From Bacteroidales bacterium (lineage in GTDB: Bacteria > Bacteroidota > Bacteroidia > Bacteroidales > VadinHA17), in contig JBAVOD010000343.1 in the NCBI GenBank assembly GCA_049691735.1, forward strand, positions 1-42,024: a stretch of DNA of 42,024 nt. Direction: 5' to 3'. The notes under the pieces were generated by a model. It ran no database searches, was not told the origin of the DNA, and saw only the letters and a program-made list of their open reading frames with translations. This document shows, in pieces, positions 8,103 to 29,940 of this stretch. A program made the translations under genes and the position numbers. How positions within the stretch are numbered: position 1 is the first letter of the stretch; each line of letters starts with the position of its first letter.

Positions 8103-8113
8103 CTTATGCAGAT

Positions 8114-9079: not shown

Positions 9080-9182
9080 ACTGTTTCATTTATTCCGTAT
9101 GCAATATAAACAAAAGATTTTGATTCCTTACCCGCAAACGGAAAATATTTTTGGGGTGCCGAAATGGGAATCAGTTTCTTAG

Positions 9183-9206
9183 CCCCCCTTCAGGGGGGTT
9201 GGGGGG
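9183..9206. repeat. Intergenic GC-hairpin/G-tract repeat locus 2, single unit
   Basis: CCCCCCTTCAGGGGGGTTGGGGGG lies 7 nt beyond the purE stop. The upstream flank cagtttctt resembles the flank at 27453-27460. Confidence 0.75.
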
Positions 9207-9212
9207 CTGCAA

Positions 9213-9719: not shown

Positions 9720-9811
9720 CCGGGTAAATTTAATTTAGCCAGCCGGCATAAACAAAAGTAAGCTATTATTTTCATATTTTCGCACAGCATTGTATTTCAA
9801 CAATCAGCACA

Positions 9812-10348: not shown

Positions 10349-10364
10349 TAAAAAGTTTTGTTTT

Positions 10365-10940: not shown

Positions 10941-10974
10941 CCTGCCGGCGCCGGAGTATAAGAAATATTAATAA

Positions 10975-11967
10975 ATGGCAGGATCGAATTTTGTTGATTA
11001 TGTAAAGATTTACTGCCGCTCGGGAAAGGGCGGTGCGGGATCGGCGCATCTGCGAAGGGAGAAGTTCATCCCTAAAGGCGGACCTGACGGCGGCGACGGC
11101 GGAAGGGGAGGACATGTGATCCTAAGGGGCAACAGTCAGATGTGGACTTTACTCCACCTCCGGTACCGTCGCCATATCTTTGCAGAGAACGGCAAACCGG
11201 GAGGTCGCCAGCAATCCACTGGTGCCGATGGGAACGATGTGATCGTTGATGTTCCCCTGGGCACCGTTGCAAGGGATGAATTGACAGACGAGGTATTGTT
11301 CGAGATAACGGCCCACGATGACGAAAAGATACTTGCAAAAGGAGGGCGTGGCGGACAGGGCAATACCCATTTCAAGTCACCCACCAACCAGACCCCCCGG
11401 TATGCCCAGCCGGGCGAGCCGGGCATAGAGGGCACATTCATCCTTGAGCTGAAAATACTTGCCGATGTGGGACTTGTCGGATTCCCGAACGTCGGAAAAT
11501 CAACCCTCCTTTCAGTTGTATCGGCTGCAAAACCAAAAATCGCAGACTATCCCTTTACTACTATGGTGCCTTCCATCGGGATTGTCCCCTACCATGGTGA
11601 AAAATCATTCATAATGGCCGACATTCCGGGCATTATTGAAGGTGCGCACGAAGGAAAAGGGCTGGGCCTCAGGTTTCTGAGGCATATTGAAAGGAATTCG
11701 ATGCTGCTGTTTGTTATTCCTGCGGACAGCAAAAATATTTCTGAGGAATACAACATCTTACTTAACGAGCTTAGAATATATAATCCCGAACTCCTTGACA
11801 AGCTGAGAGCACTTGCTATCTCGAAATCAGATCTGCTCGACGAGGAGCTTAAGGAAGAAATCAGAAAGGAACTGCCTCCCTTATCCTATGTATTCATCTC
11901 TTCAATAACAGGCCAGGGCATTCCAAAACTTAAGGAGGTGATCTGGAAAATGCTTAACAACTACTGA
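10975..11967 (+). CDS. obg: GTPase Obg/CgtA
   Basis: Obg-fold glycine-rich N-terminus ([14 protein letters not shown]) and the G-domain motifs [20 protein letters not shown] and SKSD. Confidence 0.95.
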
Positions 11968-12560
11968 TGACCATGCTTGAAAACGCCGAACACCTCGACC
12001 AGCAGATTTTTTTATTCATCAATTCAGCCCATTCGCCAATCTGGGACAAAATCATGAGTTTTATGAGCCTTATAAGTGTATGGGTGCCACTCTATCTGGC
12101 GATACTCATTTATCTGGGCTTCAGATACAGAAGGAAATTCCTAATAATTATCCTTTTTATTGCAGTGGCCATTACCCTATCCGACCAGATCTCAGTTCTT
12201 ATAAAGAACAGCGTCGACCGCCTCCGGCCATGTCATGATCCTGAATTGCAGGGACTCGTACATATTGTTAACGGCACCTGTGGAGGATTGTACGGTTTTG
12301 TATCGTCTCACGCTGCAAATACGTTCAATGTCGCTATGCTGACTCTTCTCCTGATCAGAAGAAGGTGGTATTCGGTGTTTATGATCATCTGGGCTGCGGT
12401 CATCAGTTACAGCAGGGTTTATCTTGGTGTACACTATCCCGGAGATGTGCTTTTCGGCTCGCTCGTGGGACTCCTCCTTGGCTGGACAATGTATAAACTT
12501 TATGAATTGACCGACAGGAAGGTGCTTCAGCACAGGGCATATTTTAACCCGGCACACTGA
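11967..12560 (+). CDS. PAP2-family membrane phosphatase (undecaprenyl-diphosphatase-like)
   Basis: Acid-phosphatase motifs KNSVDRLRP, SSHAAN and SRVYLGVHYPGDV, with multiple TM helices. The start shares one nucleotide with the obg stop (TGATG). Confidence 0.85.
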   Translation: MTMLENAEHLDQQIFLFINSAHSPIWDKIMSFMSLISVWVPLYLAILIYLGFRYRRKFLIIILFIAVAITLSDQISVLIKNSVDRLRPCHDPELQGLVHIVNGTCGGLYGFVSSHAANTFNVAMLTLLLIRRRWYSVFMIIWAAVISYSRVYLGVHYPGDVLFGSLVGLLLGWTMYKLYELTDRKVLQHRAYFNPAH

Positions 12561-12639
12561 GCAGGTGCAACTCCGCTGTTTCCGGTTCTCTCACCGGCGT
12601 AGCCGTTGATGGATTATTAAAGATTTCGGCAAAGTAGAA

Positions 12640-13674
12640 ATGTACTGCATCAGCCTCGAAACTACAGACCCGTTTTTCAACCTTGCGGTTGATCAGTTCC
12701 TGCTTGAAAATACAACTGATGAATTCCTGATCCTCGGAGTAAATGAAAGCTCGGTCATAATTGGTAAGCACCAGGTAGCTCACAGGGAAGCAGATACAAG
12801 GTTCATTTCCGCCCATAATATACCTCTTCTTCGCAGGATCTCCGGAGGAGGCGCTGTGTACCACGACAGGGGCAACCTGAATTTTTCGTTCATAATGAAC
12901 AGTCAGCCGGGAAAGCAGATCGATTTCAGTAAATACACCCAACCGGTGATGGCTTTCCTGTCTTCGCTTGGCATTCAGGCAGTTTTTGAAGGCAAGAACG
13001 ATCTTACGGTCGGCGGACTGAAGATCTCAGGAAATGCCGAACATATTTACAGGAACAGGGTACTGCATCATGGTACCTTATTATTTGACACAGATCTTGA
13101 AATGATGCGGCGCGCCCTGAGGCGCGACACCTCCGGATACCATACAAGGGCCGTGGCATCAAATCCGTCACGGGTTGTGAACCTTGCAGATGTTATCGGC
13201 AACGTGGTTAAAAACGTTGGAGACAACGTAGGAAGCAACGTAGAAAGCTATGTAGGAAGCTATGTAGGAAGCTATGTAGGAAGCAACGTTGCAAACATTT
13301 CCGGTTTTAAAACCGTTATGATGAACTGGCTCCTGGAAAATACCCCCGGAGCCTCCGTGGCGAACCTTACCGGAGAACAGTTGACAGCTGCCGGAGCACT
13401 GGCTCAATCGAGATATGCAACATGGGAATGGAATTATGGATACGGGCCGGAGTACCATTTTGAAAACAGCTTCAAATATAAGGGTCACACATCGGAATGC
13501 ACCATGTTCGTCAAAGACGGGATCATATGGGAGTGCTCCGTCAATGAACCCGCTGAGCTGGCATCAGCCGCGAAAAAGCTGATAGGATGCAGGCATATGG
13601 TGGAGGATATCTGGAAGGTTCTGCTTAACGAAAATATAAGGGAAGAGGAACTTGATGTTTTTGAATTCTTCTGA
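12640..13674 (+). CDS. lplA: Lipoate-protein ligase A, with an internal tetrapeptide-repeat insert
   Basis: LplA/BPL_LplA_LipB features are present: NLAVDQFLL, VIIGKHQ, RRISGGGAVYHDRGNLNFSF, KISGNAEH and HHGTLLFD. A C-terminal LplA-type domain follows. Confidence 0.85.
   Translation: MYCISLETTDPFFNLAVDQFLLENTTDEFLILGVNESSVIIGKHQVAHREADTRFISAHNIPLLRRISGGGAVYHDRGNLNFSFIMNSQPGKQIDFSKYTQPVMAFLSSLGIQAVFEGKNDLTVGGLKISGNAEHIYRNRVLHHGTLLFDTDLEMMRRALRRDTSGYHTRAVASNPSRVVNLADVIGNVVKNVGDNVGSNVESYVGSYVGSYVGSNVANISGFKTVMMNWLLENTPGASVANLTGEQLTAAGALAQSRYATWEWNYGYGPEYHFENSFKYKGHTSECTMFVKDGIIWECSVNEPAELASAAKKLIGCRHMVEDIWKVLLNENIREEELDVFEFF
13201..13296 (+). repeat. In-frame degenerate 12-bp tandem repeat (about 8 units) inside lplA
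   Basis: The units are aacgtggttaaa, aacgttggagac, aacgtaggaagc, aacgtagaaagc, tatgtaggaagc x3 (perfect copies) and aacgttgcaaac. They encode NVVK NVGD NVGS NVES YVGS YVGS YVGS NVAN. Confidence 0.9.
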
Positions 13675-19248: not shown

Positions 19249-21858
19249 ATGGAAGATCAGGAACTTGATATAAATAATCCCGAGGGTATTGAGGATACTC
19301 CCCATGGTCCTGCTGCCCTTCATTCGGTAACGGCATTGTCGGGAATGTACCAGGATTGGTTTCTCGATTATGCTTCATATGTAATACTCGAGCGTGCCGT
19401 TCCGCACCTGAATGACGGGCTTAAACCAGTCCAGCGCCGTATCCTTCACTCAATGAGAAGGATGGATGACGGACGCTACAACAAGGTGGCAAACATCATA
19501 GGCCATACAATGCAGTTTCACCCGCACGGTGATGCATCAATCGGTGATGCCCTTGTTCAGCTTGGACAAAAAGATCTTCTTGTTGATGCCCAGGGTAACT
19601 GGGGCAACATACTTACCGGCGACGGCGCTGCGGCACCGAGATACATTGAGTCGAGGCTTTCTAAATTTGCCCTTGAAGTGGTTTTCAATCCGAAAACAAC
19701 AGAATGGAAACTATCCTACGACGGCCGGAACAAGGAACCTGTTACATTGCCGGTTAAATTCCCGCTTCTCCTCGCCCTTGGTGTTGAGGGAATTGCTGTG
19801 GGTCTCGCTTCAAAGATCCTTCCTCATAATTTCAATGAGATCATTGATGCGTCAATCGACTACCTTATGGGCAAGGATTTCTTTCTTTATCCTGATTTTC
19901 CTACCGGCGGAATGATAGATGTTTCGAGATACAATGACGGCCAGAGGGGAGGTGTGGTAAAGGTACGTGCCAAAATAGAAAAGATCGACAAGAAGGCGCT
20001 GGTAATCACCGAGATCCCTTATGGCAAAACCACACCGAGCCTGATCGAGTCGATCATTAAGGCGAATGACAAGGGAAAGATCAAGATAAAGAAAATAGAC
20101 GACAACACTTCGGCAAACGTTGAAATAGTTGTCTATCTGATGCCCGGTGTTTCGCCCGACAAGACTATCGATGCACTTTATGCCCTTACCGACTGCGAAT
20201 ACTCCATTTCGCCGAATACCTGTGTAATATCGGGCAGTAAACCTTCCTTCATGGGAGTCAGCGATATCCTTCGCTTTTCAACCGACAATACTGTAAAGCT
20301 GCTTACCACTGAGCTGGAGATCAGGCTGAAGGAACTGGGGGAGGAATGGCACCTCTCATCCCTCGAAAAGATCTTCATCGAGGAAAGGATATACAGGGAT
20401 ATTGAGGAATGCGAAACCTGGGAAGCGGTGATCAGCGCCATCGATGAAGGGCTCCGGCCTTTTAAAAAGAGATTGCTGCGCGAAGTAACAAGGGACGATA
20501 TCATCAGGCTGACCGAGATAAAGATAAAGAGGATATCGAAATATGACGCTAAAAAAGCTGATGAGCATATCAAAGGCATTGAGACAGAGCTGGAAGAAGT
20601 AAAGAACCATCTCCGGAACATCATACCCTTTTCCATAAATTATTTCAGACAGATCAAGAAAAAATACGGCAGGGGAAAAGAACGGAAAACGGAGATCCGC
20701 AGCTTTGATACAATACTTGCCACTAAAGTGGTTGCCAACAATGCGAAGCTTTATATCAATTATAAGGAAGGTTTTTTGGGAACAGGCCTGAAAAAGGACG
20801 AGTTTGTGTGCGAATGTTCAGATATTGATGATATTATAGTTATCAGGAAGGATGGGGGATATCTTATTACCAAAGTGGCTGACAAGGTCTTTGTGGGCAA
20901 TGATATTGTCTATGCCCGGGTATTCCTCAAAAATGATGAGCGCACCATATATAATATCGTCTACCAGGATGGTAAAGATGGTCCGATGATGGTAAAGCGT
21001 TGTTCAATCACAGGTCTTACCCGTGATAAGGAATATAATCTTACACATGGGACCGCAGGCTCGAAAATTGTTTATTTCAGCGCTAATCCCAACGGTGAGG
21101 CCGAGGTAATAAAGGTACACCACAAGCCGAAGGCAAGGCTCAAGAAGATGGTCTTCGAGTTTGATTTCGGCCAGCTTGCCATTAAGGGAAAATCGTCGAT
21201 GGGGAATATCCTGACCAAAAATCCCGTGCAACGGATAAGTCTTAAGGAAAAAGGACTTTCAACCCTTGGCGGAAGAAAGATCTGGTTCGATGATGCAGTA
21301 TTCAGGCTCAATGTTGACGGGAGAGGATTATTCCTCGGAGAGTTCAGTGCTGACGACAAGATACTTGTAATCACAAAGAACGGATACTTCAGGGTGACTG
21401 GATTTGATCTCTCGAATCATTTTGAAGACAACATACTGATAATTGAAAAGTATCGTCCAGGGACTGTTTATTCAGTGCTTTACTGGGATGACGAACAGCA
21501 ATATCACTATATTAAACGGTTCATAATTGAGGAATCCGAAAAGCCTCTGTGCTTTATCAGCGAAAGTCCCGAATCGAAGCTGTTAAGTATCACTGAAGTT
21601 GAGTACCCCCGGTTCGAGATACATTTTGGCGGCAAGCACAAGGACCGTGAAAATGAGATCATTGAGGTTGCCGAATTCATCGGGATAAAAAGCTATAAGG
21701 CGAAGGGCAAGCGGCTTACCAGTTACATGGTTGACAATATTGAGGAGATCGGGCCGGTAGTAAAGAAGGAAGCGCCCCCGCCCCCTGACGAAGAAAAGGA
21801 AGAACCGCCTTCAAGAGGAATCCGGTCCGACCCTGCACAAATGACATTGGAGCTTTGA
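19249..21858 (+). CDS. parC: Type IIA topoisomerase A subunit, most likely topoisomerase IV ParC
   Basis: ERAVPHLNDGLKPVQRRIL, HPHGD and the active-site Tyr region AAPRYIESRL. The length is 869 aa with a Pro/Glu-rich tail. It lies immediately downstream of parE. Confidence 0.8.
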   Translation: MEDQELDINNPEGIEDTPHGPAALHSVTALSGMYQDWFLDYASYVILERAVPHLNDGLKPVQRRILHSMRRMDDGRYNKVANIIGHTMQFHPHGDASIGDALVQLGQKDLLVDAQGNWGNILTGDGAAAPRYIESRLSKFALEVVFNPKTTEWKLSYDGRNKEPVTLPVKFPLLLALGVEGIAVGLASKILPHNFNEIIDASIDYLMGKDFFLYPDFPTGGMIDVSRYNDGQRGGVVKVRAKIEKIDKKALVITEIPYGKTTPSLIESIIKANDKGKIKIKKIDDNTSANVEIVVYLMPGVSPDKTIDALYALTDCEYSISPNTCVISGSKPSFMGVSDILRFSTDNTVKLLTTELEIRLKELGEEWHLSSLEKIFIEERIYRDIEECETWEAVISAIDEGLRPFKKRLLREVTRDDIIRLTEIKIKRISKYDAKKADEHIKGIETELEEVKNHLRNIIPFSINYFRQIKKKYGRGKERKTEIRSFDTILATKVVANNAKLYINYKEGFLGTGLKKDEFVCECSDIDDIIVIRKDGGYLITKVADKVFVGNDIVYARVFLKNDERTIYNIVYQDGKDGPMMVKRCSITGLTRDKEYNLTHGTAGSKIVYFSANPNGEAEVIKVHHKPKARLKKMVFEFDFGQLAIKGKSSMGNILTKNPVQRISLKEKGLSTLGGRKIWFDDAVFRLNVDGRGLFLGEFSADDKILVITKNGYFRVTGFDLSNHFEDNILIIEKYRPGTVYSVLYWDDEQQYHYIKRFIIEESEKPLCFISESPESKLLSITEVEYPRFEIHFGGKHKDRENEIIEVAEFIGIKSYKAKGKRLTSYMVDNIEEIGPVVKKEAPPPPDEEKEEPPSRGIRSDPAQMTLEL

Positions 21859-22382
21859 TGGAGCATTTTGACAAAATATTCCTGATAGGATTCATGGGCA
21901 GCGGCAAATCGACCACAGCAAAGAAGCTTGCGTCAAAGCTGGGATGGACTTTCATTGATCTGGATCAAAAAATTGAGGAAAAAGCAGGAAAAAGAATAAC
22001 TCAGATCTTTTCAGGCGAGGGGGAAGACTGGTTCCGCCGGCTTGAATCCGAAACTCTGCGTGAAGCGATCAGTGCCGAACATGCTGTTATATCAACCGGC
22101 GGCGGCACTCCATGCTATTCAGTGAACATGGACCTTATGGTCAGCAGCGGCCTGACTGTCTATCTTAAAATGACTCCTGAACAACTCCGGAACAGATTGT
22201 CTCATTCAACAAGTACGCGGCCCCTGCTGAAGGGTATGAAGGAAGATGAGTTGCTGGGATTTATTGAAAGGAAACTGGATGAACGGGAAAAATGGTACCT
22301 GAAAGCCAGGATTATCGCTGATCCGTCAGTCGGGGGTATGGCTGATTTGTATTCAGAAGTCAGGAAACATGTGGATGGGTGA
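21858..22382 (+). CDS. aroK: Shikimate kinase
   Basis: P-loop GFMGSGKST, DLD, the FRRLE motif and STGGG. ATG 21858 overlaps the parC stop (TGATG). Confidence 0.9.
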   Translation: MEHFDKIFLIGFMGSGKSTTAKKLASKLGWTFIDLDQKIEEKAGKRITQIFSGEGEDWFRRLESETLREAISAEHAVISTGGGTPCYSVNMDLMVSSGLTVYLKMTPEQLRNRLSHSTSTRPLLKGMKEDELLGFIERKLDEREKWYLKARIIADPSVGGMADLYSEVRKHVDG

Positions 22383-22434
22383 ATATTGATTTTAATTTCT
22401 TAATTTAGGATGATCATTTAATACTTCCGGTCCT

Positions 22435-24183
22435 ATGGCAAACAAGCCTCTGACACTCCCCGTTCAAAAGAAAGAAGTATTAACCACATCAGCAGAATGG
22501 GGAAATTTGAAAAGCAGGTTTTCAGGAAAAACCCTTTTCAGGACTAATCTCTACCACCTGATAACCGGAAATCTTTCAGTTCTGGACAATATCTCCAACA
22601 AATGGTTCTTCAGCGAATTATTTGAATATTCCCGCATCACCCACGACATCAACATGCTCCCCGTACTTGGGAAGATCACGGCAAATTCTGGCTTGAGTGA
22701 AAGCCTCCGGCAGAAAGCTTCGGAAGCAGCCGAGACCATTGAGGAATGGCCGCCATCAGGCACCAGGGCAGGTGTTTCATCTGAACAGGAAAAAGCATTG
22801 GAAGCCAGGAAGATACTTGCAGGAGCAAGATTCCCCCAGACAACTGAGATACTCCGGCTGTTGCGTGATAAATCTATCATAATTAAACGGTTGGCACTCT
22901 TTCTTATAGCCAAATTCAAATTGGCCGACATGTCACAGGAGGTCTGCGAATGCCTTAATATCCCGGGTCTGGAGGAAGATGCCATTAATGCTCTGGAAGC
23001 ACTGGGCAGTTCAGCAATTAAGGAGATAAACAGATTTTATCTCAGATCTTCAGGTAATATTAATACGTCAATAGCAGTTCTCAGGCTTTTTTCAAGGACC
23101 TGCCCAAAAGAGAACATGTCATTCCTGGTTGAACGGCTCGGGTCAAATTCAAGGCAGATAAGGGAAGTAGGGGCATGTGCACTTGTTAAATGCGGTTACG
23201 GTCCGAATGATCAGGAAAGAGAGCATCTGCACGACATTATTTTCGGGGTATTCGAGACCCTGACATGGATAAATTCGGGGAAAATCACCCTTGAGATGAA
23301 TAATGAACCTCGCCTGCTGAAGGAAATGGACAAGGAATATAACAGATGGAAAGATTACCTTTTAAACCTCCTGCACATTGTCTACGGCCAGGGAGACAAC
23401 GCAGCATCAAAAGCCGGGCATGACCTTGTAAGCAAGGCTATACCTGAGCTTACTCAACTGATATTTGGTAACAGTTCAAACCACGGGAAAGAGAATATGT
23501 CCCGAGCCATTGCAGAAAAAAGGATAAACAAAAAGCTTCAGCATTATTTTCCCATGGATATCCCCGGTTACAGGGACCTGCTTGAAGACATAATTAACTG
23601 TGATTATAACCTGTTGGGCATCTGGACAAAATCGAGCGCTCTCAGGATCGTTCCGGGAATAGAGACCAGGGAGCTTGGCGAATCGGTTGCGGCGCTTTTA
23701 TTCAGTCCCGAAGAAATTCTGCGGGAGGAGGCAACCAGGCTCATGGCGCGCTCGGGCATAAGCCTTTATAAAACTACATCGGACCGCATACCCGAATCCT
23801 CAAAGAGAAAGCTTGACGGAATCATTTCAGGGGAAACAGACAGCAATGAGCTGCTTTATGAAAAAACGCGGTTCCTTGCCTCATGCTTTGACAGGATCAT
23901 CGAGGATGAATTACTTGTGCTGGCTGAAAGCCTTGAGTTCTCGAGGGATTTGAGGGGCATCCCCGAACGCGCCGACGATGGTTCGATAATCTGGACAGTT
24001 GGTCCAGGAAAGGAAATGTCGGTTAAGGTGATTTATAAAGATTCCGGCAGGAGAGAACATACTGAACCGAAGGGCGAATCGTTCTTTTATGAACTGCCCC
24101 TCAGTGCAGTCAGGGAATTCAACACGATGTACCCCGGTAGCTCATTCGGGTTATTCGGATATATTGACGAACATGAGGAATAA
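22435..24183 (+). CDS. Hypothetical protein, mostly alpha-helical HEAT/ARM-like repeats with a beta-rich C-terminal domain
   Basis: Repeated helical units resemble HEAT repeats (LLRDKSIIIKRLALFLIAKF, ERLGSNSRQIREVGACALVKCG, LLFSPEEILREEATRLMARSG). The C-terminal roughly 110 aa (ELLYEKTRFLASCFDRIIEDELLVLAE...) weakly resemble the start of a cNMP-binding-like barrel. I recognised no catalytic motif. Confidence 0.5.
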   Translation: MANKPLTLPVQKKEVLTTSAEWGNLKSRFSGKTLFRTNLYHLITGNLSVLDNISNKWFFSELFEYSRITHDINMLPVLGKITANSGLSESLRQKASEAAETIEEWPPSGTRAGVSSEQEKALEARKILAGARFPQTTEILRLLRDKSIIIKRLALFLIAKFKLADMSQEVCECLNIPGLEEDAINALEALGSSAIKEINRFYLRSSGNINTSIAVLRLFSRTCPKENMSFLVERLGSNSRQIREVGACALVKCGYGPNDQEREHLHDIIFGVFETLTWINSGKITLEMNNEPRLLKEMDKEYNRWKDYLLNLLHIVYGQGDNAASKAGHDLVSKAIPELTQLIFGNSSNHGKENMSRAIAEKRINKKLQHYFPMDIPGYRDLLEDIINCDYNLLGIWTKSSALRIVPGIETRELGESVAALLFSPEEILREEATRLMARSGISLYKTTSDRIPESSKRKLDGIISGETDSNELLYEKTRFLASCFDRIIEDELLVLAESLEFSRDLRGIPERADDGSIIWTVGPGKEMSVKVIYKDSGRREHTEPKGESFFYELPLSAVREFNTMYPGSSFGLFGYIDEHEE

Positions 24184-24209
24184 ACTTCCGGCATAATTTT
24201 AAACAGCCT

Positions 24210-27200
24210 ATGGCTTCAGAGACAAAAGACGAAAATTTCAATCCTTTCCCCGGATTGCGACCGTATACTCCCGGTGATGCCGATTTCTTTTTTGGCCGGC
24301 AGGGAGAAAGCGAAGAGATCGCCAGGAAGGTGATTGAGAACCGGTTCGTGGCACTGATAGGGGCGTCGGGAACCGGCAAATCGTCACTGATCCGATGCGG
24401 ATTGATCCCGGCGATCAGGAAATTGTCGCAGGAGGATTTCCAGTCATGGAAAATTGTAATGATGAATCCCGGCCGTAATCCGTTTGACAGCCTGGCTGAA
24501 GCAATTTCCGTAGCGTTTCCGGATAATGAATATAAAGGCACTATAAGGGGATTACTGAAAGAGAGTACAAAAGGTATCCCGGATATTCTTTCTCTTCTGC
24601 ACCTGAAAAAGGATTCAAAAATATTGCTGGTGATTGACCAGCTTGAGCAGTTGTTCAGATATGGTCAGCCCGAAACAGGTACAGGGCTCAACAGGGAAAC
24701 ACCGGCATTCCTGAATCTTCTGACCCGGGCAATCCTTGATTCTGCCCCGGGGTTTTACCTTGCAGTGGCCATCAGGTCTGACCTCCTGGCTGAGTGTGCT
24801 CATCATAAGGGATTTACGCAGATCATTAACAATTCGAATTACCTTTTACCCAAAATGACCCGCGACAATGTGCGCGAAGTCATTGAGGGTCCGGTAAAAA
24901 GGGCAGGAGCTGCTATCGACCCGGCGCTCGTTGCCCATATGACGGATGAAGTCATTGACGTGGTCGAACAATTGCCCTTGCTCCAGCATGCCCTGATGAG
25001 GACATGGGAAAGCTGGAAGGAGCTTGATGAGCCGGGCAGGCCTATCGGATTCGATGACTATAATTCAATAGGAACAGTGAAGGGCGCTATTTCGCGCCAT
25101 GCTGACGAGATATATGGGTCATTGTCGAATGGATCAAAAGTGATCTGTGAGAAGCTATTTAAGATCATCACCGGAAAGGGTTCAGATAACAAAGGGATAA
25201 GGTATCCTTCAAACGTCAGGACTATAAGATCAGCCATCCACTGCACCGGGGAGGAACTTTTTGAGGTAATTGACAAATACAGGGATCCGTCAATCTTTCT
25301 ACTTAACCCCGACAGCACTGTTGCACTTAATGATGATTCAATTATCGACCTTTCCCATGAAAGCCTGATCACCCTGTGGGACCGGCTTAAAATGTGGGTG
25401 AACGAGGAGAACCAGTCTGTAGAATTATATCTGCATCTGTCAGAGGCTTCTGCATTGTATCAGCAGGGGAAAACAGGTTTGCTTAAACCACCCGACCTTC
25501 AGCTTGCCATCGACTGGCGCGAAAAGAACAATCCTGACCTGTGGTGGGCTCAGAAATACAATCCTGCCTTTGAAAGGGCAATGGTTTACCTTCGCACAAG
25601 TGAAAAGGAATTCGCTGAAGCGGAAGAAAGAAAAGCACGCCAGCAAAGGTGGAGGCTCAGGAGAACAAGGATCTTTACTTCGATCACAGGAGGATTGGCA
25701 GTAATTACTGCACTGATCACAATCGGTGCCCTGGTGTCGAAATTTTCGGCCGACAACCGGAGGCGGATGGCTGAAAGAATGATGGAGGAAATTACAGCCG
25801 AGAAGGATGCTGCCGGTCATTATGCAACAATCGCTATCAAACGATCTGTCGAATCGGATTCTATTGCAAGCGAAGCCACCAGGAAGCAAAACCAGGAAAG
25901 GCTGCTGCGCGAAAAAGCTGAACAGGACTATCAGGCAGCTGAAAGGGAGGCAATGACAGCCCACGCTGAATCGGAAACCGCAATTAAGACAGCCAGATCG
26001 GTAGCTGAGGCAAAGGATGAAATGCAGCGCCAGCGGATGCTGTCGATCTCAAAATCTATGTCGCTGAGGTCGCTGCAGATGAAAGGAGAGAAGGATCTTC
26101 AGGCCCTCCTTGCTTACCAGGCATATCTCTTCAACAGGAACAATAGGGGCAAAACCAACGACCCCGATATATACGAAGGCATGTATAACCTCGCAAAGCT
26201 TAATGGAAGCGCTCTCCTCAGGAGTTTCACCGGTTATTCGGGACAGGTCAGCAGCATAGCCTTTGTACCGGGAAAGAAAGAATTTTTTACAGCTGATTCC
26301 GAGGGGAAGGTCCTTAAATGGGATCTCGACAGCAAGGCAAATAGCTTCCAGGTCGTTTATTCGAATTCTGAAGTGATCGATGTACTTGCAGTAAGTCCTG
26401 ACGCCGGCTGGCTTGCATGCGGAGGTGAAAGTGCAGGGATTAAAATGATACCTCTTCAGGGCAGCATTCCAGAATATGAACTTAAGGGGCATTCAGGTAA
26501 GATCAGATCTCTCGTCTTCTCCTTTGATGGCAGGTACCTGTATTCAGCGGCGCTTGACGGAAAGGTGCTAAAGTGGGATCTCTCAACCAAAGCATCCGTC
26601 GAATTGACGACAACTATGGCAAAGGTGACCTCGATTGATCTCTCGTCTGATAACAGGTATATTGCAGGAGTTGGCAGCAACGGGCAGGCAGTGGTCTGGA
26701 ATCCTGGGCAGAATGCTGAGCGGTTTACAATCGGTTCGGAGGGAAGGACCATCAGGACAATCAGGTTCAAGCCCGGAGAGGAGGAGGTTGCAGTAGGTTA
26801 CGATGACGGAATGGTCGAGCTCTGGGATGCCGGATCAAAATCAATGATCTCGGAATTCCGAGCCCATCCTGGCGAAGTCAGCAATATACGTTTTAACAAC
26901 AGGCAGAAGCAGATGGCCACTTCAGGCAGTGATGGCACGCTGAAACTGTGGGACACCGGTGATCTGACGAGCCTGCCTGTCAGCTTTGGAAACAATAACG
27001 GGCTGGTGGTTACCTTCGAATTCAGTCCCGACGGCGAAGTGATTTTATCGGCTGGTATAGAGGGAAAACCGGAGATCCGGAGGCGGCCTGCTTATGCTGA
27101 CCTATTCGCAGCCGATGGATGCTCGTATGTCACAAGGAACTTTACTCCGGAGGAATGGATTGCTTATGTCGGCCGCGATATCGCATACGAGAAAACCTGC

Positions 27201-27242
27201 CCTGAATCGGATTTCAAGATCATCATCAGGGAAATCAGGTAA
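24210..27242 (+). CDS. STAND-type P-loop NTPase with a hydrophobic helix, a coiled coil and a 7-bladed WD40 propeller
   Basis: N-terminal signature NPFPGLRPYTPGDADFFFGRQGE, Walker A GASGTGKS (nt 24360-24383) and Walker B ILLVIDQLE (nt 24621-24647). Also an R-rich flanked hydrophobic helix, a charged coiled coil, seven WD40-like blades and the C-terminal cap FTPEEWIAYVG..YEKTCPE. Confidence 0.85.
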   Translation: MASETKDENFNPFPGLRPYTPGDADFFFGRQGESEEIARKVIENRFVALIGASGTGKSSLIRCGLIPAIRKLSQEDFQSWKIVMMNPGRNPFDSLAEAISVAFPDNEYKGTIRGLLKESTKGIPDILSLLHLKKDSKILLVIDQLEQLFRYGQPETGTGLNRETPAFLNLLTRAILDSAPGFYLAVAIRSDLLAECAHHKGFTQIINNSNYLLPKMTRDNVREVIEGPVKRAGAAIDPALVAHMTDEVIDVVEQLPLLQHALMRTWESWKELDEPGRPIGFDDYNSIGTVKGAISRHADEIYGSLSNGSKVICEKLFKIITGKGSDNKGIRYPSNVRTIRSAIHCTGEELFEVIDKYRDPSIFLLNPDSTVALNDDSIIDLSHESLITLWDRLKMWVNEENQSVELYLHLSEASALYQQGKTGLLKPPDLQLAIDWREKNNPDLWWAQKYNPAFERAMVYLRTSEKEFAEAEERKARQQRWRLRRTRIFTSITGGLAVITALITIGALVSKFSADNRRRMAERMMEEITAEKDAAGHYATIAIKRSVESDSIASEATRKQNQERLLREKAEQDYQAAEREAMTAHAESETAIKTARSVAEAKDEMQRQRMLSISKSMSLRSLQMKGEKDLQALLAYQAYLFNRNNRGKTNDPDIYEGMYNLAKLNGSALLRSFTGYSGQVSSIAFVPGKKEFFTADSEGKVLKWDLDSKANSFQVVYSNSEVIDVLAVSPDAGWLACGGESAGIKMIPLQGSIPEYELKGHSGKIRSLVFSFDGRYLYSAALDGKVLKWDLSTKASVELTTTMAKVTSIDLSSDNRYIAGVGSNGQAVVWNPGQNAERFTIGSEGRTIRTIRFKPGEEEVAVGYDDGMVELWDAGSKSMISEFRAHPGEVSNIRFNNRQKQMATSGSDGTLKLWDTGDLTSLPVSFGNNNGLVVTFEFSPDGEVILSAGIEGKPEIRRRPAYADLFAADGCSYVTRNFTPEEWIAYVGRDIAYEKTCPESDFKIIIREIR
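25671..25739 (+). other. Predicted transmembrane or hydrophobic helix inside the STAND-WD40 protein
   Basis: IFTSITGGLAVITALITIGALVS (residues 488-510) is preceded by RKARQQRWRLRRTR and followed by KFSADNRRRMAERMMEE. Confidence 0.6.
26214..27070 (+). other. Seven WD40-like blades forming a beta-propeller domain of the STAND protein
   Basis: Seven units of about 41 aa end in WD-like dipeptides: KVLKWDL, GIKMIPL, KVLKWDL, AVVWNP, VELWDA, LKLWDT and a terminal degenerate blade. Confidence 0.8.
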
Positions 27243-27246
27243 GACT

Positions 27247-27281
27247 GAAGCACGAAGCCCGAAGCCGGAAGACCGAAAAGT
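27247..27281. repeat. Degenerate heptamer tandem repeat (GAAGCNN, about 5 copies)
   Basis: The units are gaagcac, gaagccc, gaagccg, gaagacc and gaaaagt, starting 5 nt after the STAND gene stop. Confidence 0.7.
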
Positions 27282-27304
27282 ACCATTATAAGGCTCCCTA
27301 TAAA

Positions 27305-27520
27305 GGCAGAAAAGCCAAACAGAATGCACTGATATGCCCCCCTCACAGGGGGGTTGGGGGGTTGTTAAATGCTTATAGACAAATGTAAACTACCCCCTGG
27401 GAGGGGGACAAAAAAGAGTGCCATTATTAAAATCCCGGGTTAAACAGAATGCAGTTTCCTGCCCCTCTCTCAGGGTGGTTGGAGGGTCGTTAAATGTTTA
27501 TCGGCAAATTTGACTACTTT
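27305..27520. repeat. Intergenic repeat locus 4: composite of three GC-hairpin units with conserved flanks
   Basis: The 5' flank ggcagaaaagccaaacagaatgcactg (27305-27331) matches 29133-29159 at 25 of 27 positions. The cores are CCCCCCTCACAGGGGGGTTGGGGGG (27337-27361), CCCCCTGGGAGGGGG (27393-27407) and the degenerate gcccctctctcagggtggttggagggt (27461-27487). GTTAAATG(C/T)TT tails are present. Confidence 0.85.
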
Positions 27521-27591
27521 TGAGGCCGAAAATTTATTGACCCACGAACAAGGACTGATTAATTTCTGTTTAACAATTGAATAATTTGAAA

Positions 27592-29112
27592 ATGAAAAAT
27601 AAGAAAACCCTGTTAATGATCCTCGACGGCTGGGGAATAGGTGACGGATCAGTTGCCGATGTCATAAGCCAGGTACCGACCCCCAACATCACTTCATTCA
27701 AAAAAAAATATCCGAATTCCAGGCTTCACGCTTCGGGCGAGGATGTCGGCCTTCCTGAAGGACAGATGGGAAATTCGGAAGTCGGGCATCTCAATATCGG
27801 AGCAGGCAGGATCATTTACCAGGATCTTGTCAAGATAAACAAAGAATGCAAAAACGGAGCTATTAATAAGAACAAGGTGCTGACCGATGCCTTCTCGTAC
27901 GCAAGGGACAATAACAAGCAGGTCCATTTTTTCGGGCTTCTGTCCGATGGGGGCGTCCATTCACTTGACAAGCATCTTTATTACCTGTGTGACATGACCG
28001 GTGACTATGATCTTAAAAAGGTGTTCATTCACGGTTTCGGCGATGGAAGGGATACCGATCCGCGGAGTGGCGTCGGTTATATGCAAAACCTTATCGAACA
28101 TCTAAAAACATCCCACGCGAAAGTAGCATCGTTCGTAGGCAGATATTATGCGATGGACAGGGACAAAAGATGGGAAAGAATAAAGGAAGCTTATGATCTG
28201 ATAGTTAACGGAAAGGGAACCCCGACCACTGACATAGTATCGGCAATGCGGGAATCATACGACAATGAGGTTACCGACGAATTCATGAAACCGATTGCAG
28301 TCGTTGACGGGAAAGGCGAAGCCATCGGAAAGCTTAAGGAAGGCGACGTTGTAGTTTTTTTCAACTTCAGGAACGACAGGGCCAAAGAGCTTACAATTGC
28401 GCTTACCCAAAAAGATATGCCTGAATTCGGAATGAAAACGATGCCTCTGTACTATTGCACTATGACGCCCTATGATGCCACCTTCAAAGGTATGCATGTA
28501 ATCTATCCTAAGGATAACGTTGATAATACAATAGGGGAGATCCTCTCGGCCAAAGGAAAAACTCAGCTCAGAATTGCCGAGACTGAAAAATACGCTCACG
28601 TTACTTTCTTCTTTTCGGGAGGCCGTGAAGAGGTCTTCAAAAATGAGGACAGGATCCTGATCCCTTCGCCCAGGGTTGCAACATATGATCTTCAACCTGA
28701 GATGAGCGCCTACGGTGTAAAAGAGGCTGTGATCAAAGCAATAAACTTGGGAAAGTATGACTTTATCTGCCTTAATTTCGCAAATGGCGATATGGTTGGC
28801 CATACAGGGGTATATGAAGCTATAAAGAAGGCGATAGCAGTAGTGGATGAATGTGCAGGTGCCGTGGCAAATGCTGCCAGAAACATGGGGTATGATGTCC
28901 TTATAATTGCCGATCACGGTAATGCGGATAAGGCTCTTAATGAAGACGGGACACCCAATACGGCACACTCGCTCAACCCGGTACCCTGCATATTGTTAAC
29001 AGATGATTACACTTCGATCAGGGAAGGCATCCTCGCGGATGTGGCTCCGACGCTGCTTACAATAATGGGGATAGAGGTACCGAAAGAGATGACAGGTAAG
29101 GCGCTGGTTTGA
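27592..29112 (+). CDS. gpmI: 2,3-bisphosphoglycerate-independent phosphoglycerate mutase
   Basis: [33 protein letters not shown] and ADHGNA motifs. I preferred ATG 27592 (MKNKKTLL) to the TTG at 27577. Confidence 0.93.
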
Positions 29113-29358: not shown

Positions 29359-29940
29359 ATGATTCGAATAGGCGATATAATTTTCAGTCTTGATATTCTT
29401 GAAAAGAAATTCAAATGTGACCTTCATCATTGCCTTGGAAGCTGTTGCCGCTATGGCGATTCAGGGGCCCCATTGACTGACGATGAAGTAACTCTCCTTG
29501 AACAGATATGGCCGGATGTAAGGCCCTATCTGCGGCCGGAAGGAATAAACTCGGTCGAAAGGGAAGGCACAAGTGTGAAGGATTTTGAAAATGAAAATGT
29601 TACACCTCTGATAAACAACGAGGAGTGTGCCTACACATTAATCGAGGGCAATATATATATGTGCGGTATAGAAAAAGCATGGAAGGACGGCAAAACCGCA
29701 TTCCGGAAACCCGTTTCATGTCACCTGTTTCCTGCGAGAGTTAAGCAATTTGCAGGTTTTAAGGCGGTTAACTACCAGGAATTGACTATATGCCAATCGG
29801 CAAAGGACTGCGGAAACACCGAAGGGATCTATGTATATGAATTCCTAAAAGCCCCCCTGATCAGAGTATTCGGCGAAGATGTCTATGCTGAACTATGCAT
29901 CGCTGCCACAAACTTTAAAGAAGGCAGTACAAAAAAATAG
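29359..29940 (+). CDS. Cys-rich conserved hypothetical protein (DUF3109-like)
   Basis: 193 aa. The N-terminal pattern FSLDILEKKFKCDLHHCLGSCCRYGDSGAPLTDDE matches my recollection of the Bacteroidota DUF3109 family. The assignment is from memory. Confidence 0.55.
   Translation: MIRIGDIIFSLDILEKKFKCDLHHCLGSCCRYGDSGAPLTDDEVTLLEQIWPDVRPYLRPEGINSVEREGTSVKDFENENVTPLINNEECAYTLIEGNIYMCGIEKAWKDGKTAFRKPVSCHLFPARVKQFAGFKAVNYQELTICQSAKDCGNTEGIYVYEFLKAPLIRVFGEDVYAELCIAATNFKEGSTKK

What the first reader, a model, noticed from the sequence alone, without database searches (positions are those of the whole stretch)
22435..27242. HEAT/ARM-like protein plus effector-less STAND NTPase-TM-coiled coil-WD40 giant: candidate uncharacterised sensing/conflict module
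Two co-oriented genes are separated by only 26 bp, with no terminator-like hairpin between them.

The downstream 1010-aa protein has the hallmarks of a STAND-type signalling NTPase:
- the N-terminal PGLRPY..DADFFFGR motif;
- Walker A GASGTGKS;
- Walker B LLVIDQLE;
- a long helical/winged-helix-like region;
- seven WD40 blades;
- the ..EEW..YVG...Y..TCP cap that I associate with cyanobacterial and actinobacterial WD40-NTPases.

Bacterial STAND NTPases with repeat sensors (the Avs and NACHT-like families) are established antiviral or conflict sensors. They usually carry an N-terminal effector such as a nuclease, TIR domain, protease or caspase. Here Walker A begins at residue 51, so no effector is fused. 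The only candidate partner is the upstream 582-aa all-helical repeat protein with a beta-rich C-terminal domain, and I recognise no catalytic motif in it.

The pair sits among housekeeping genes (parEC, aroK, gpmI) rather than in an obvious defence island. It is immediately followed by the repeat-rich spacer. The function, the ligand and the output of this pair are all unknown.
Basis: partly seen in the sequence, partly recalled or inferred. Interest (0 to 1): 0.75.

Follow-up and report, generated by a model that had tools for sequence, protein, structure and literature searches.

The report
Membrane-anchored STAND ATPase with HEAT partner
These two adjacent genes are a real, conserved pair: a membrane-anchored molecular-switch ATPase of unknown function and a helical scaffold protein that was once the tail of a nucleotide transporter. 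Together they are the stripped-down remnant of a larger, undescribed cell-envelope gene cluster found across the phylum Bacteroidota.

Summary
GeneB (24210-27242) is a Pfam nSTAND1 NTPase (E 4.6e-86). It is followed by one transmembrane helix, a helical stalk of about 130 aa, seven WD40 blades and a conserved cap. There is no N-terminal effector.

GeneA (22435-24183) is a HEAT solenoid with a small C-terminal domain. It is not an orphan. Profile comparison shows it is the HEAT plus degenerate cNMP-binding tail of the NTT-HEAT-cNBD nucleotide-transporter fusion family, with the transporter domain deleted.

The genes are linked in 133 of 137 informative loci from Bacteroidales to Cytophagales. 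Fuller versions read NTT-HEAT-cNBD, sensor-HAMP-PP2C, a TIR/DUF4062-like protein, nSTAND1-TM-WD40, an outer-membrane beta-barrel and a lipoprotein. The window keeps only the HEAT and STAND genes, fixed between aroK and gpmI in about 50 species-level genomes.

Both genes are under purifying selection (dN/dS 0.12-0.16, like aroK). The WD40 sensor is not diversifying, and no anti-phage defence model (PADLOC) matches.

I read the pair as a reduced trans-envelope signalling switch, with the NTPase in the cytoplasm and the WD40 domain in the periplasm, not as a classical defence system. Ligand and output remain unknown. Novelty: a new variant of known kinds.

The parts
22435..24183 (+). geneA, 582 aa. 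It is a soluble HEAT/ARM solenoid plus a small C-terminal domain. It is a transporter-less member of the NTT-HEAT-cNBD family.
   Evidence: ORF. AF2 model with pLDDT 83.6. Foldseek finds only generic HEAT/ARM solenoids. hhalign of the geneA family against the full-length family gives probability 100%, E 2.9e-48, aligning to family positions 513-1055. dN/dS is 0.155.
22492..23934 (+). HEAT/ARM-like alpha-solenoid of geneA (residues ~20-500).
   Evidence: DSSP on the AF2 model shows about 28 helices and no strands. Many orthologues carry a precomputed Pfam HEAT_2 hit. This stretch aligns to the HEAT region of the full-length family, and that region matches alphaRep/HEAT structures at E 1e-26.
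23935..24180 (+). C-terminal small alpha/beta domain of geneA (residues ~501-582). By position it corresponds to a cNMP-binding domain, but it is shortened and degenerate.
   Evidence: AF2 shows four strands and two helices. hhalign places it opposite the cNBD of the full-length family, and that cNBD matches PKG and PKA-R cNBDs at E 6e-19. The geneA-family profile alone matches no cNBD.
24184..24209 (.). 26-bp intergenic gap between geneA and geneB, with no terminator-like site.
   Evidence: In 67 loci where the two genes are direct neighbours the median gap is 13 bp.
24210..27242 (+). geneB, 1010 aa: nSTAND1 NTPase, helical arm, single TM helix, helical stalk, seven-blade WD40 propeller and C-terminal cap.
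   Evidence: dN/dS is 0.120.
24243..25469 (+). nSTAND1 NTPase module (residues 12-420). It includes Walker A (residues 51-58, nt 24360-24383) and Walker B (residues 139-147, nt 24624-24650).
   Evidence: Pfam PF20703 at E 4.6e-86, 290 bits. Invariant residues are G51, G56, K57, S58, D143, Q144 and E146. The AF2 model has pLDDT 80.7. Foldseek neighbours are ORC/Cdc6, the archaeal ATPases SSO1545 and PAB2304, Apaf-1 and plant NRC NLRs.
25470..25670 (+). Conserved helical 'arm' (residues 421-487), ending in the basic stretch RQQRWRLRRTR.
   Evidence: This is the most conserved segment: 68% mean identity and dN/dS 0.075. It has many invariant residues.
25671..25739 (+). Single transmembrane helix, I488-S510.
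   Evidence: KD is 2.06. A single strong TM segment is present in 115 of 119 orthologues. The flanking-charge rule favours an N-in topology in 116 of 119.
25740..26234 (+). Charged helical stalk and linker (residues 511-675), predicted to be periplasmic.
   Evidence: G+P is 1.6%, A/E/K/R/Q is 54%, and there is 3.5-residue periodicity. The length from the TM helix to the LLAYQAY motif is conserved at 113-145 aa. The periplasmic location is inferred from topology.
26235..27089 (+). Seven-blade WD40 beta-propeller (residues ~676-960).
   Evidence: Pfam WD40 at 109.8 bits, plus many beta-propeller families spanning residues 676-952. Seven repeat units can be read from the sequence. dN/dS is 0.101.
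27090..27239 (+). C-terminal cap (residues 961-1010) with ..C..RNFTPEEW..YVG.DI.YEKTC...
   Evidence: The sequence is. C, R, N, E, W, V, D, Y, E, T and C are nearly invariant in the Bacteroidales orthologues. The two Cys are absent from the Runella and Persicobacter paralogues.

Best explanation
The pair is the minimal, vertically inherited remnant of a Bacteroidota-wide envelope signalling cluster built around a membrane-anchored STAND switch.

Shown:
- GeneB is an nSTAND1 NTPase with intact Walker motifs. It is tethered by one TM helix to a ~130-aa helical stalk and a seven-blade WD40 propeller.
- GeneA is the HEAT plus degenerate cNBD tail of an NTT-HEAT-cNBD nucleotide-transporter fusion that has lost its transporter domain.
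- The two genes are co-directional neighbours in nearly all relatives, and both are under purifying selection.

Inferred:
- The NTPase faces the cytoplasm, and the stalk and WD40 domain face the periplasm.
- In fuller clusters the WD40 domain meets a co-encoded outer-membrane barrel and lipoprotein.
- Binding of a conserved, probably endogenous, envelope ligand or partner changes the oligomeric state across the membrane. This drives nucleotide exchange and assembly of the cytoplasmic nSTAND1 modules.
- The assembled NTPase is read out by the HEAT scaffold. In the ancestor that scaffold was physically attached to an NTT transporter, so the original output was probably control of nucleotide transport. 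A HAMP-PP2C phosphatase and a TIR/DUF4062-like protein were accessory cytoplasmic modules.
- In this genome the HEAT protein acts as a free adaptor, and its downstream target is unknown.
For: Identity:
- nSTAND1 at E 4.6e-86 and WD40.
- Walker A, Walker B and the arm are invariant.
- The NTPase model has an AAA+/STAND fold, with neighbours ORC/Cdc6, Apaf-1 and NRC.

GeneA ancestry:
- 1039 relative clusters were found. The distant ones are ~1000-1075 aa, with the geneA-like part at the C-terminus.
- The full-length profile hits the chloroplast NTT1 (9j3j) at 5e-14, HEAT/alphaRep structures at 1e-26 and PKG/PKA cNBDs at 6e-19.
- hhalign probability is 100%.
- The NTT-HEAT-cNBD family is described in PMC5381601.

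Linkage:
- All 80 genome loci that are long enough keep geneA followed by geneB within parE-parC-aroK-A-B-gpmI.
- 133 of 137 informative loci overall keep the link, including different genomic contexts in Cytophagales.
- The median gap is 13 bp.
- The pair survives after every other cluster component has been lost.

Envelope theme:
- Co-encoded genes are a HAMP-SpoIIE phosphatase with a periplasmic sensor, an outer-membrane beta-barrel with a signal peptide, and a lipoprotein.
- Start and stop codons are tightly packed or overlapping.

Topology:
- A single TM helix occurs in 115 of 119 orthologues.
- The N-side flank has net charge +4.6 against +0.5 on the C-side.
- The stalk length is conserved at 113-145 aa.

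Selection: dN/dS is 0.155 for geneA and 0.120 for geneB, against 0.166 for aroK. The WD40 domain is at 0.10.
Against: - No direct evidence shows that the two proteins bind each other. A multimer prediction could not be run.
- The periplasmic location of the WD40 domain rests only on the positive-inside rule and on the envelope neighbours seen in other genomes. Those neighbours are absent from this 42-kb window.
- The same C-terminal cap motif is recalled from cytoplasmic WD40-NTPases of other phyla.
- No ligand, no output and no experimental data exist for any member.
- The TIR-like protein, the cNBD and the transporter in the ancestral cluster would fit a nucleotide-signalling conflict system equally well.
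- Related pairs occur on plasmids in Runella and Persicobacter, so the module is not always core-genomic.
Confidence: 0.5

Rival explanations
1. The pair is an Avs- or NLR-like anti-phage or abortive-infection system. The WD40 domain recognises an invader protein and the STAND module oligomerises. The partner then mediates cell shutdown. Ancestrally this would run through the TIR-like protein, a cyclic-nucleotide signal, the cNBD and gating of the NTT transporter to leak ATP or NAD. In this genome it would run through the HEAT protein.
For: - The STAND plus repeat-sensor architecture is that of known antiviral sensors.
- nSTAND1 was defined within predicted counter-invader systems (PMC8195603).
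- Fuller clusters carry a TIR_2/DUF4062-like protein, a cNBD and a nucleotide transporter. These recall Thoeris and Pycsar signalling logic.
- Paralogous pairs sit on plasmids in Runella and Persicobacter, one inside a contractile-injection-system locus.
- Three uncultured phage records carry distant nSTAND1-like ORFs at 23-26% identity.
Against: - The pair is fixed at one position in a housekeeping block in about 50 species-level genomes, with no presence/absence variation seen.
- dN/dS is 0.12-0.16, and the sensor propeller is more constrained than the NTPase. This is the opposite of arms-race sensors.
- PADLOC gives no hit for any cluster protein beyond P-loop or repeat noise.
- In the window lineage the TIR-like protein and the transporter are gone and the cNBD is degenerate, so the proposed killing arm is missing.
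- If the WD40 domain is periplasmic it could not meet cytoplasmic phage proteins.
Confidence: 0.2
2. The pair is an inside-out scaffold or assembly factor. The cytoplasmic NTPase, regulated by the HEAT protein, uses ATP to organise the periplasmic stalk and propeller. That structure positions or assembles outer-membrane proteins. It would be a structural or biogenesis role, not signal reception.
For: - The WD40 domain and the stalk length are strongly conserved.
- An outer-membrane barrel and a lipoprotein are co-encoded in fuller clusters, and in Runella a TonB-dependent receptor lies next to the STAND gene.
- Periplasmic WD40/TPR proteins exist in Bacteroidota. PorE is an example, seen in the search listing.
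Against: - STAND NTPases are known as regulated switches, not motors.
- The outer-membrane partners are absent from this window, yet the pair is retained.
- The PP2C/HAMP module and the STAS/RsbW-like neighbours point to signalling.
Confidence: 0.15
3. The two genes are neighbours without a functional link, or geneA is a decaying fragment left by deletion of the transporter domain.
For: GeneA lost about 445 N-terminal residues relative to its ancestors. Its own profile no longer detects HEAT or cNBD structures in the PDB.
Against: - Linkage holds in 133 of 137 loci across orders and in different contexts.
- GeneA is a full-length ORF in about 50 genomes, with dN/dS 0.155 in every region.
- Its AF2 model is confident.
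- Gaps are tiny.
Confidence: 0.05

Closest known systems
nSTAND1 clade of STAND NTPases (Pfam PF20703; Kaur, Iyer, Burroughs and Aravind 2021, PMC8195603)
   Same: The NTPase module matches the family HMM over its full length (residues 12-420, 290 bits). It has the typical N-terminal P-G-L-R-x-F/Y...FFGR motif, Walker A and B, a winged-helix region and C-terminal WD40 repeats.
   Different: The described nSTAND1 systems carry N-terminal adaptor or effector domains (EAD, Death-like, TIR, caspase, trypsin) and are patchily distributed conflict systems. Here there is no N-terminal domain, and a TM helix and stalk separate the NTPase from the sensor. The partner is an NTT-derived HEAT protein, and the locus lies in a conserved housekeeping gene block.
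NTT-HEAT(-cNBD) nucleotide-transporter fusion family (Major et al. 2017, PMC5381601)
   Same: GeneA aligns end to end with the HEAT-cNBD tail of this family (hhalign E 2.9e-48). Full-length relatives match solved NTT1, HEAT and cNBD structures.
   Different: The window protein lacks the NTT domain altogether, and its cNBD is shortened and unrecognisable by profile. The paper does not report linkage to a STAND/WD40 gene.
Avs and bacterial NACHT antiviral STAND proteins; Apaf-1
   Same: The logic is the same: a NOD-type NTPase plus a C-terminal repeat sensor, with ligand-triggered oligomerisation. Apaf-1 also pairs a STAND module with WD40 propellers, and it is a structural neighbour of the model (Foldseek E 6e-6).
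   Different: There is no fused effector or CARD-like adaptor, and no PADLOC match. The protein is membrane-anchored with the sensor predicted on the other side of the membrane. It is under purifying selection and inherited with its housekeeping neighbours.
Receptor Ser/Thr kinases with extracytoplasmic beta-propellers (e.g. M. tuberculosis PknD) - analogy from my own knowledge
   Same: The topology is the same: a cytoplasmic enzymatic switch, a single TM helix and an extracytoplasmic propeller sensor.
   Different: The cytoplasmic module is a STAND NTPase, not a kinase. There is no homology.
SiaA/RsbU-type PP2C partner-switching modules
   Same: Fuller clusters encode a sensor-HAMP-SpoIIE phosphatase (NCBIfam SiaA-like, E 4e-77, below the family cut-off). 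The Runella paralogue sits beside STAS proteins and an RsbW-like ATP-binding protein.
   Different: None of these genes is present in the window, and their link to the STAND protein rests on gene neighbourhood only.

Membership tests
nSTAND1 STAND NTPase (PF20703) | Full-length match to the family HMM above the curated cut-off | tested here: met
   E 4.6e-86, 290.3 bits against a cut-off of 27.1. Residues 12-420 match profile positions 1-374 of 379.
nSTAND1 STAND NTPase (PF20703) | Intact P-loop (Walker A GxxxxGK[ST]) and Walker B acidic residues | tested here: met
   GASGTGKS at residues 51-58 and LLVIDQLE at residues 139-146. G51, G56, K57, S58, D143, Q144 and E146 are invariant in 26 orthologues. 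Walker A is present across the 119 orthologues surveyed.
nSTAND1 STAND NTPase (PF20703) | STAND tripartite fold (P-loop NBD, helical domain, winged helix) | tested here: inconclusive
   The AF2 model (pLDDT 80.7) finds ORC/Cdc6, SSO1545, PAB2304, Apaf-1 and plant NRC at E 7e-8 to 1e-5. TM-scores are only 0.35-0.45. This fits AAA+/STAND but does not separate STAND from ORC/Cdc6. No solved nSTAND1 structure exists by sequence search.
nSTAND1 STAND NTPase (PF20703) | C-terminal superstructure-forming repeat sensor | tested here: met
   WD40 at 109.8 bits, with propeller families over residues 676-952. Seven blades can be read from the sequence.
nSTAND1-centred conflict systems (Kaur et al. 2021) | Fused or adjacent effector or adaptor domain (EAD, Death-like, TIR, caspase, peptidase) | tested here: not met
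   Only 11 residues precede the nSTAND1 match. Walker A starts at residues 49-68 in all 119 orthologues. GeneA has no enzymatic Pfam, NCBIfam or PADLOC match. A TIR_2/DUF4062-like gene exists only in the fuller clusters of other genomes.
Anti-phage STAND defence (Avs / bNACHT type) | Match to curated defence-system models | tested here: not met
   PADLOC gives only a repeat hit (HEAT-ARM_XIII on the WD40 part) and P-loop noise.
Anti-phage STAND defence (Avs / bNACHT type) | Accessory, patchy distribution, often in defence islands or mobile elements | tested here: not met
   The position parE-parC-aroK-A-B-gpmI is conserved in every sufficiently long locus of 80 species-level genomes. However, paralogous pairs occur on Cytophagales plasmids.
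Anti-phage STAND defence (Avs / bNACHT type) | Rapidly evolving or diversifying sensor domain | tested here: not met
   dN/dS of the WD40 domain is 0.101 and of the cap 0.099, against 0.136 for the NTPase.
Anti-phage STAND defence (Avs / bNACHT type) | Protection against phage on challenge | not testable with these tools
   This needs a wet-lab phage challenge.
NTT-HEAT-cNBD fusion family (PMC5381601) | N-terminal NTT (TLC-type) 12-TM nucleotide transporter domain | tested here: not met
   The domain is absent from the window protein. GeneA starts 52 bp after aroK, has no TM segment (maximum KD 1.39), and no NTT-like sequence occurs anywhere in the window. It is present in relatives: the profile hits NTT1 9j3j at E 5e-14.
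NTT-HEAT-cNBD fusion family (PMC5381601) | HEAT-repeat domain homologous to that of the family | tested here: met
   hhalign of A1 against A3 gives probability 100%, E 2.9e-48, over 519 columns. The AF2 model is a solenoid. Orthologues carry HEAT_2.
NTT-HEAT-cNBD fusion family (PMC5381601) | C-terminal cyclic-nucleotide-binding domain | tested here: inconclusive
   The domain is positionally homologous, but it is only ~80 aa with four strands. The geneA-family profile finds no cNBD in the PDB, and Pfam cNMP_binding is not hit. It is probably no longer a nucleotide binder.

The most novel reading that the evidence does not exclude
GeneB and its relatives are transmembrane STAND receptors: NLR-like ATPase switches whose WD40 sensor lies in the periplasm on a ~20-nm stalk. 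They would couple an outer-membrane or periplasmic cue to cytoplasmic NTPase assembly. Through the HEAT-cNBD tail they would also control an NTT nucleotide transporter, with PP2C and TIR-like modules as accessories. This would be a previously undescribed, phylum-wide trans-envelope signalling machine of Bacteroidota, and the window shows its irreducible two-protein core.
Probability: 0.3. Interest if true: 0.8.

Novelty: new variant of a known kind. Interest (0 to 1): 0.6.

Why it matters
STAND/NLR-type ATPases are central to innate immunity in animals, plants and bacteria. So far they are understood as soluble cytoplasmic sensors with fused effectors.

This pair has three unusual properties:
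- It has no effector.
- It is membrane-anchored, with its sensor probably on the far side of the membrane.
- It is inherited with its housekeeping neighbours and under purifying selection, not shuffled like a defence gene.

It also gives the first genomic context for the enigmatic NTT-HEAT-cNBD fusions, whose function has been open since 2017. They are systematically coupled to a STAND switch and, in fuller clusters, to a PP2C phosphatase, a TIR-like protein and outer-membrane proteins.

The reduction series in Bacteroidales points to the HEAT-STAND contact as the core interaction. The series runs from six genes to NTT-HEAT plus STAND, then to HEAT plus STAND.

Cultured Runella and Persicobacter strains carry versions that could be tested.

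Tried and rejected
- Pfam, NCBIfam and PADLOC scans of geneA found nothing usable.
- Foldseek of the geneA model against the PDB gave only generic solenoids (E >= 4e-3, TM <= 0.3).
- The geneA-family profile against PDB sequences gave nothing. The link to NTT-HEAT-cNBD emerged only through the full-length relatives.
- phmmer of the NTPase module against the PDB gave only P-loop noise.
- Pfam did not call the N-terminal membrane domain of relatives as TLC, giving only a weak MFS_1 hit. The PDB profile search resolved this as NTT.
A 14-sequence alignment worked.
- Rfam found no RNA family in 21800-27700.
- Literature searches for nSTAND1, NTT-HEAT, and STAND with transmembrane or periplasmic terms found no description of this cluster.
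- I rejected the idea that geneA is a pseudogene remnant, because of its purifying selection and confident fold.
- I rejected the idea that the hydrophobic segment is a buried helix, because KD is 1.9-2.4 or higher and it is conserved as the only such segment in 115 of 119 orthologues.
- I did not use the conserved Cys pair in the cap as evidence for a periplasmic disulfide, because the Cytophagales paralogues lack it.
- I could not run a complex prediction for geneA with geneB.

Full report
**1. Observation**

The window holds two co-oriented ORFs at exactly the stated coordinates. GeneA is 22435-24183 (582 aa) and geneB is 24210-27242 (1010 aa). They are 26 bp apart, with no plus-strand terminator-like site between them.

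- FPGLRPYTPGDADFFFGR at residues 13-30.
- Walker A GASGTGKS at residues 51-58.
- Walker B LLVIDQLE at residues 139-146.
- Seven ~41-aa WD-type repeats between residues ~676 and 960.
- The cap TPEEWIAYVGRDIAYEKTCPE.

Composition is unremarkable relative to the flanks. The flanks are type IIA topoisomerase subunits, aroK, gpmI and a DUF3109 gene.

**2. What geneB is**

Pfam places residues 12-420 in nSTAND1 (PF20703) at E 4.6e-86, 290 bits against a cut-off of 27.1. Residues 676-952 fall in WD40 and beta-propeller families.

nSTAND1 was named by Kaur et al. 2021 as a novel STAND clade found in predicted counter-invader systems (PMC8195603). It also appears in DGR-diversified putative sensors (PMC10907252).

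An AlphaFold2 model of residues 1-486 has pLDDT 80.7 and pTM 0.74. It shows a P-loop alpha/beta core followed by helical domains. Its closest solved folds are ORC/Cdc6, the archaeal ATPases SSO1545 and PAB2304, Apaf-1 and plant NRC NLRs, at E 7e-8 to 1e-5. That is the neighbourhood expected for a STAND module, though TM-scores are modest. No solved structure is detectable by sequence.

Residues I488-S510 form one strongly hydrophobic helix with Kyte-Doolittle hydropathy (KD) of 2.06. Across 119 full-length orthologues taken from fetched loci:
- 115 have exactly one such segment.
- Walker A always starts at residues 49-68, so no member has an N-terminal effector domain.
- The N-terminal flank of the TM helix carries a net charge of +4.6, against +0.5 on the C-terminal flank.
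- N-in topology is favoured in 116 of 119.

The segment after the TM helix is almost free of Gly and Pro and is 54% A/E/K/R/Q. Its length is conserved at 113-145 aa, median 135. I did not run a dedicated coiled-coil predictor, so 'coiled coil' remains an inference. A long helical stalk is well supported.

**3. What geneA is**

Direct scans gave nothing. The AlphaFold2 model is confident (pLDDT 83.6, pTM 0.83). It shows an all-alpha solenoid over residues 20-500 and a small terminal domain of four strands and two helices. Foldseek returned only generic HEAT/ARM solenoids such as PP2A-A, AP2, karyopherins and alphaRep.

Homologue searches changed the picture.
- The close family consists of full-length 575-600-aa proteins from uncultured Bacteroidales.
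- A profile search of 1.84 billion representatives found 1039 clusters. In the more distant ones, ~1000-1075 aa long, the geneA-like region is the C-terminal half, behind a ~440-aa multi-TM domain.
- A profile of these long proteins hits three kinds of solved structure. The N-terminus hits the chloroplast ADP,ATP carrier NTT1 (9j3j) at E 5e-14. The middle hits HEAT/alphaRep proteins at E 1e-26. The C-terminus hits cNMP-binding domains of PKG and PKA-R at E 6e-19.

This is the NTT-HEAT-cNBD fusion family described by Major et al. 2017, whose function is unknown (PMC5381601).

hhalign aligns the geneA family to positions 513-1055 of the long family with probability 100% and E 2.9e-48. GeneA is therefore the HEAT tail of that family with the transporter deleted. 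Its terminal domain occupies the place of the cNBD. That domain is shortened and is no longer recognisable as a cNBD.

**4. Linkage and the larger cluster**

A scan of one genome per species returned 80 loci, essentially all Bacteroidales MAGs. In every locus long enough, geneA is followed by a geneB orthologue, and the whole block parE-parC-aroK-A-B-gpmI-DUF3109 is conserved. ParC is 81-89% identical, geneA 38-53% and geneB 44-67% by region.

Some of these loci keep the long NTT-HEAT form. Some have an extra 660-aa gene between A and B. That gene has a periplasmic sensor, HAMP and a SpoIIE/PP2C phosphatase domain, and it is SiaA-like.

Distant full-length homologues lie in other genomic contexts, including Cytophagales and 80 metagenome contigs. 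They show a tightly packed co-directional cluster:
- NTT-HEAT-cNBD.
- Sensor-HAMP-PP2C (optional).
- A ~450-500-aa protein with borderline DUF4062 and TIR_2 matches (optional).
- nSTAND1-TM-stalk-WD40.
- An outer-membrane beta-barrel with a signal peptide and an N-terminal TPR-like region.
- A ~400-430-aa lipoprotein.

Overall, 133 of 137 loci with enough downstream DNA have the STAND gene co-directional downstream of the (NTT-)HEAT gene. The exceptions are:
- one locus interrupted after the PP2C gene by opposite-strand genes;
- one rearranged locus;
- two loci with a divergent paralogue.

Where the two genes are direct neighbours the median gap is 13 bp.

The window contains no NTT, PP2C, TIR-like, barrel or lipoprotein homologue. 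It represents the most reduced state. Within Bacteroidales there is a visible reduction series, from the six-gene form to NTT-HEAT plus STAND, then to HEAT plus STAND. The HEAT domain and the STAND protein are exactly the two elements that are never separated. This is the strongest argument that they work together.

**5. Selection and mobility**

I used 15 orthologue pairs with unsaturated dS:

| Gene | dN/dS |
|---|---|
| parC | 0.041 |
| gpmI | 0.049 |
| aroK | 0.166 |
| geneA | 0.155 |
| geneB | 0.120 |

By region within geneB and geneA:

| Region | dN/dS |
|---|---|
| geneB NTPase | 0.136 |
| geneB arm | 0.075 |
| geneB stalk | 0.160 |
| geneB WD40 | 0.101 |
| geneB cap | 0.099 |
| geneA regions | 0.13-0.21 |

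Nothing suggests a diversifying sensor. No cluster protein matches PADLOC defence models beyond P-loop and repeat noise.

However, tblastn against plasmids found related nSTAND1-TM-WD40 genes at 35-39% identity on secondary replicons of cultured Cytophagales.
- In Persicobacter psychrovividus pPP2, the gene follows a multi-TM-HEAT-cNBD-like gene by 11 bp, inside a contractile-injection-system locus.
- In Runella rosea, it sits with STAS proteins, an RsbW-like ATP-binding protein, a TonB-dependent receptor and an NTT-like 'MFS transporter'.

Phage records gave only three distant hits at 23-26% identity.

**6. How it most likely works**

*Shown.* GeneB is an nSTAND1 switch with intact catalytic motifs, a TM anchor, a stalk and a propeller. 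GeneA is a soluble HEAT scaffold derived from a transporter tail. The two are obligately linked and under purifying selection.

*Inferred from topology rules and neighbours.*
- The cytoplasmic face would gather the NTPase and the HEAT(-cNBD) tail. In fuller clusters it would also hold the PP2C domain and the TIR-like protein.
- The periplasmic face would gather the stalk and the propeller. In fuller clusters it would also hold the PP2C sensor domain, the barrel's periplasmic region and the lipoprotein.

I therefore propose a trans-envelope receptor. A conserved periplasmic or outer-membrane cue alters stalk and propeller packing and drives nucleotide-dependent assembly of the cytoplasmic NTPase. 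The HEAT scaffold reads this out. Ancestrally the readout would gate or regulate the attached nucleotide transporter. Here it would act through an unknown target.

My confidence in the identities and the linkage is high, about 0.9. My confidence in the mechanism is moderate to low. I give 0.5 overall.

*Rivals.*
- An Avs-like defence or abortive-infection system: 0.2. It is favoured by the TIR-like protein, cNBD and transporter of the full cluster and by the plasmid-borne paralogues. It is disfavoured by the fixed position among housekeeping genes, the purifying selection, the loss of exactly those parts here, and the predicted periplasmic sensor.
- An inside-out scaffold for outer-membrane organisation: 0.15.
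- Mere adjacency or a decaying geneA: 0.05.

**7. Comparison and novelty**

GeneB is a member of nSTAND1 by HMM, motifs and repeats. It does not meet the effector/adaptor feature of the described nSTAND1 conflict systems, nor the tested features of antiviral STANDs.

GeneA is a truncated member of the NTT-HEAT-cNBD family. The HEAT domain is present, the NTT domain is absent and the cNBD is degenerate.

In the searchable literature I found no description of three things:
- a linkage between NTT-HEAT and a STAND gene;
- this envelope cluster;
- STAND proteins with a TM-separated, predicted periplasmic WD40 sensor.

Both component families are known, and no function has been shown. I therefore rate this as a new variant of known kinds, with interest 0.6. 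The most novel reading not excluded is a phylum-wide transmembrane STAND receptor machine. I give that a probability of about 0.3, and it would deserve an interest of about 0.8 if true.

Noticed in passing
window 27317-27384 and 27442-27509: The spacer after geneB holds two copies of a 68-nt direct repeat at 81% identity, 125 nt apart. Each contains a G/C hairpin (CCCCCC-N5-GGGGGG type). The core motif occurs nowhere else in the window, and no Rfam family matches.
   Followed up: partly
L166 (Persicobacter psychrovividus pPP2, NZ_AP025294.1) 6801-13000: A paralogous pair lies between divergent operons of a contractile injection system (sheath, baseplate, PAAR, tape measure, DUF4255). The pair is a multi-TM-HEAT-cNBD-like gene and an nSTAND1-TM-WD40 gene, 11 bp apart. 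This could be a regulatory link or a coincidence.
   Followed up: partly
L165 (Runella rosea plasmid NZ_CP030852.1) 6522-19295: An nSTAND1-TM-WD40 gene is flanked by two STAS/anti-sigma-antagonist genes, an RsbW-like ATP-binding protein, a TonB-dependent receptor, a GNAT and a 962-aa NTT-like 'MFS transporter'. This partner-switching context echoes the PP2C gene of the main cluster.
   Followed up: partly
L081 13377-14783; L108 13267-14772; L124 13157-14608: The ~450-500-aa cluster protein has a central DUF4062 match (E down to 2e-6) and a sub-threshold TIR_2 match, plus a TIR-like VFINY start. Whether a catalytic Glu is conserved was not examined.
   Followed up: partly
L094 15311-23129; L139 and L149: These are the exceptions to the linkage. 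In L094 the cluster stops after the PP2C gene, where large opposite-strand genes follow, possibly an insertion. L139 and L149 carry a divergent NTT-HEAT paralogue with no STAND gene nearby.
   Followed up: partly
P0103, L077, P0384: Some records with Bacteroidota-type genes carry improbable organism labels: 'Dolichospermum sp.', 'Chloroflexota bacterium' and 'Hyphobacterium sp. CCMP332'. These are probably contamination or mis-binning.
   Followed up: no
window 21855-21858 and 22383-22434: aroK overlaps the end of parC by 4 bp, and geneA starts 52 bp after aroK. This would allow parE-parC-aroK-geneA-geneB to be one long transcription unit. No promoter analysis suited to Bacteroidota was possible.
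   Followed up: no
window 29359-29940: The DUF3109 (PF11307) gene downstream of gpmI is conserved in synteny in nearly all related loci. Its function is unknown.
   Followed up: no
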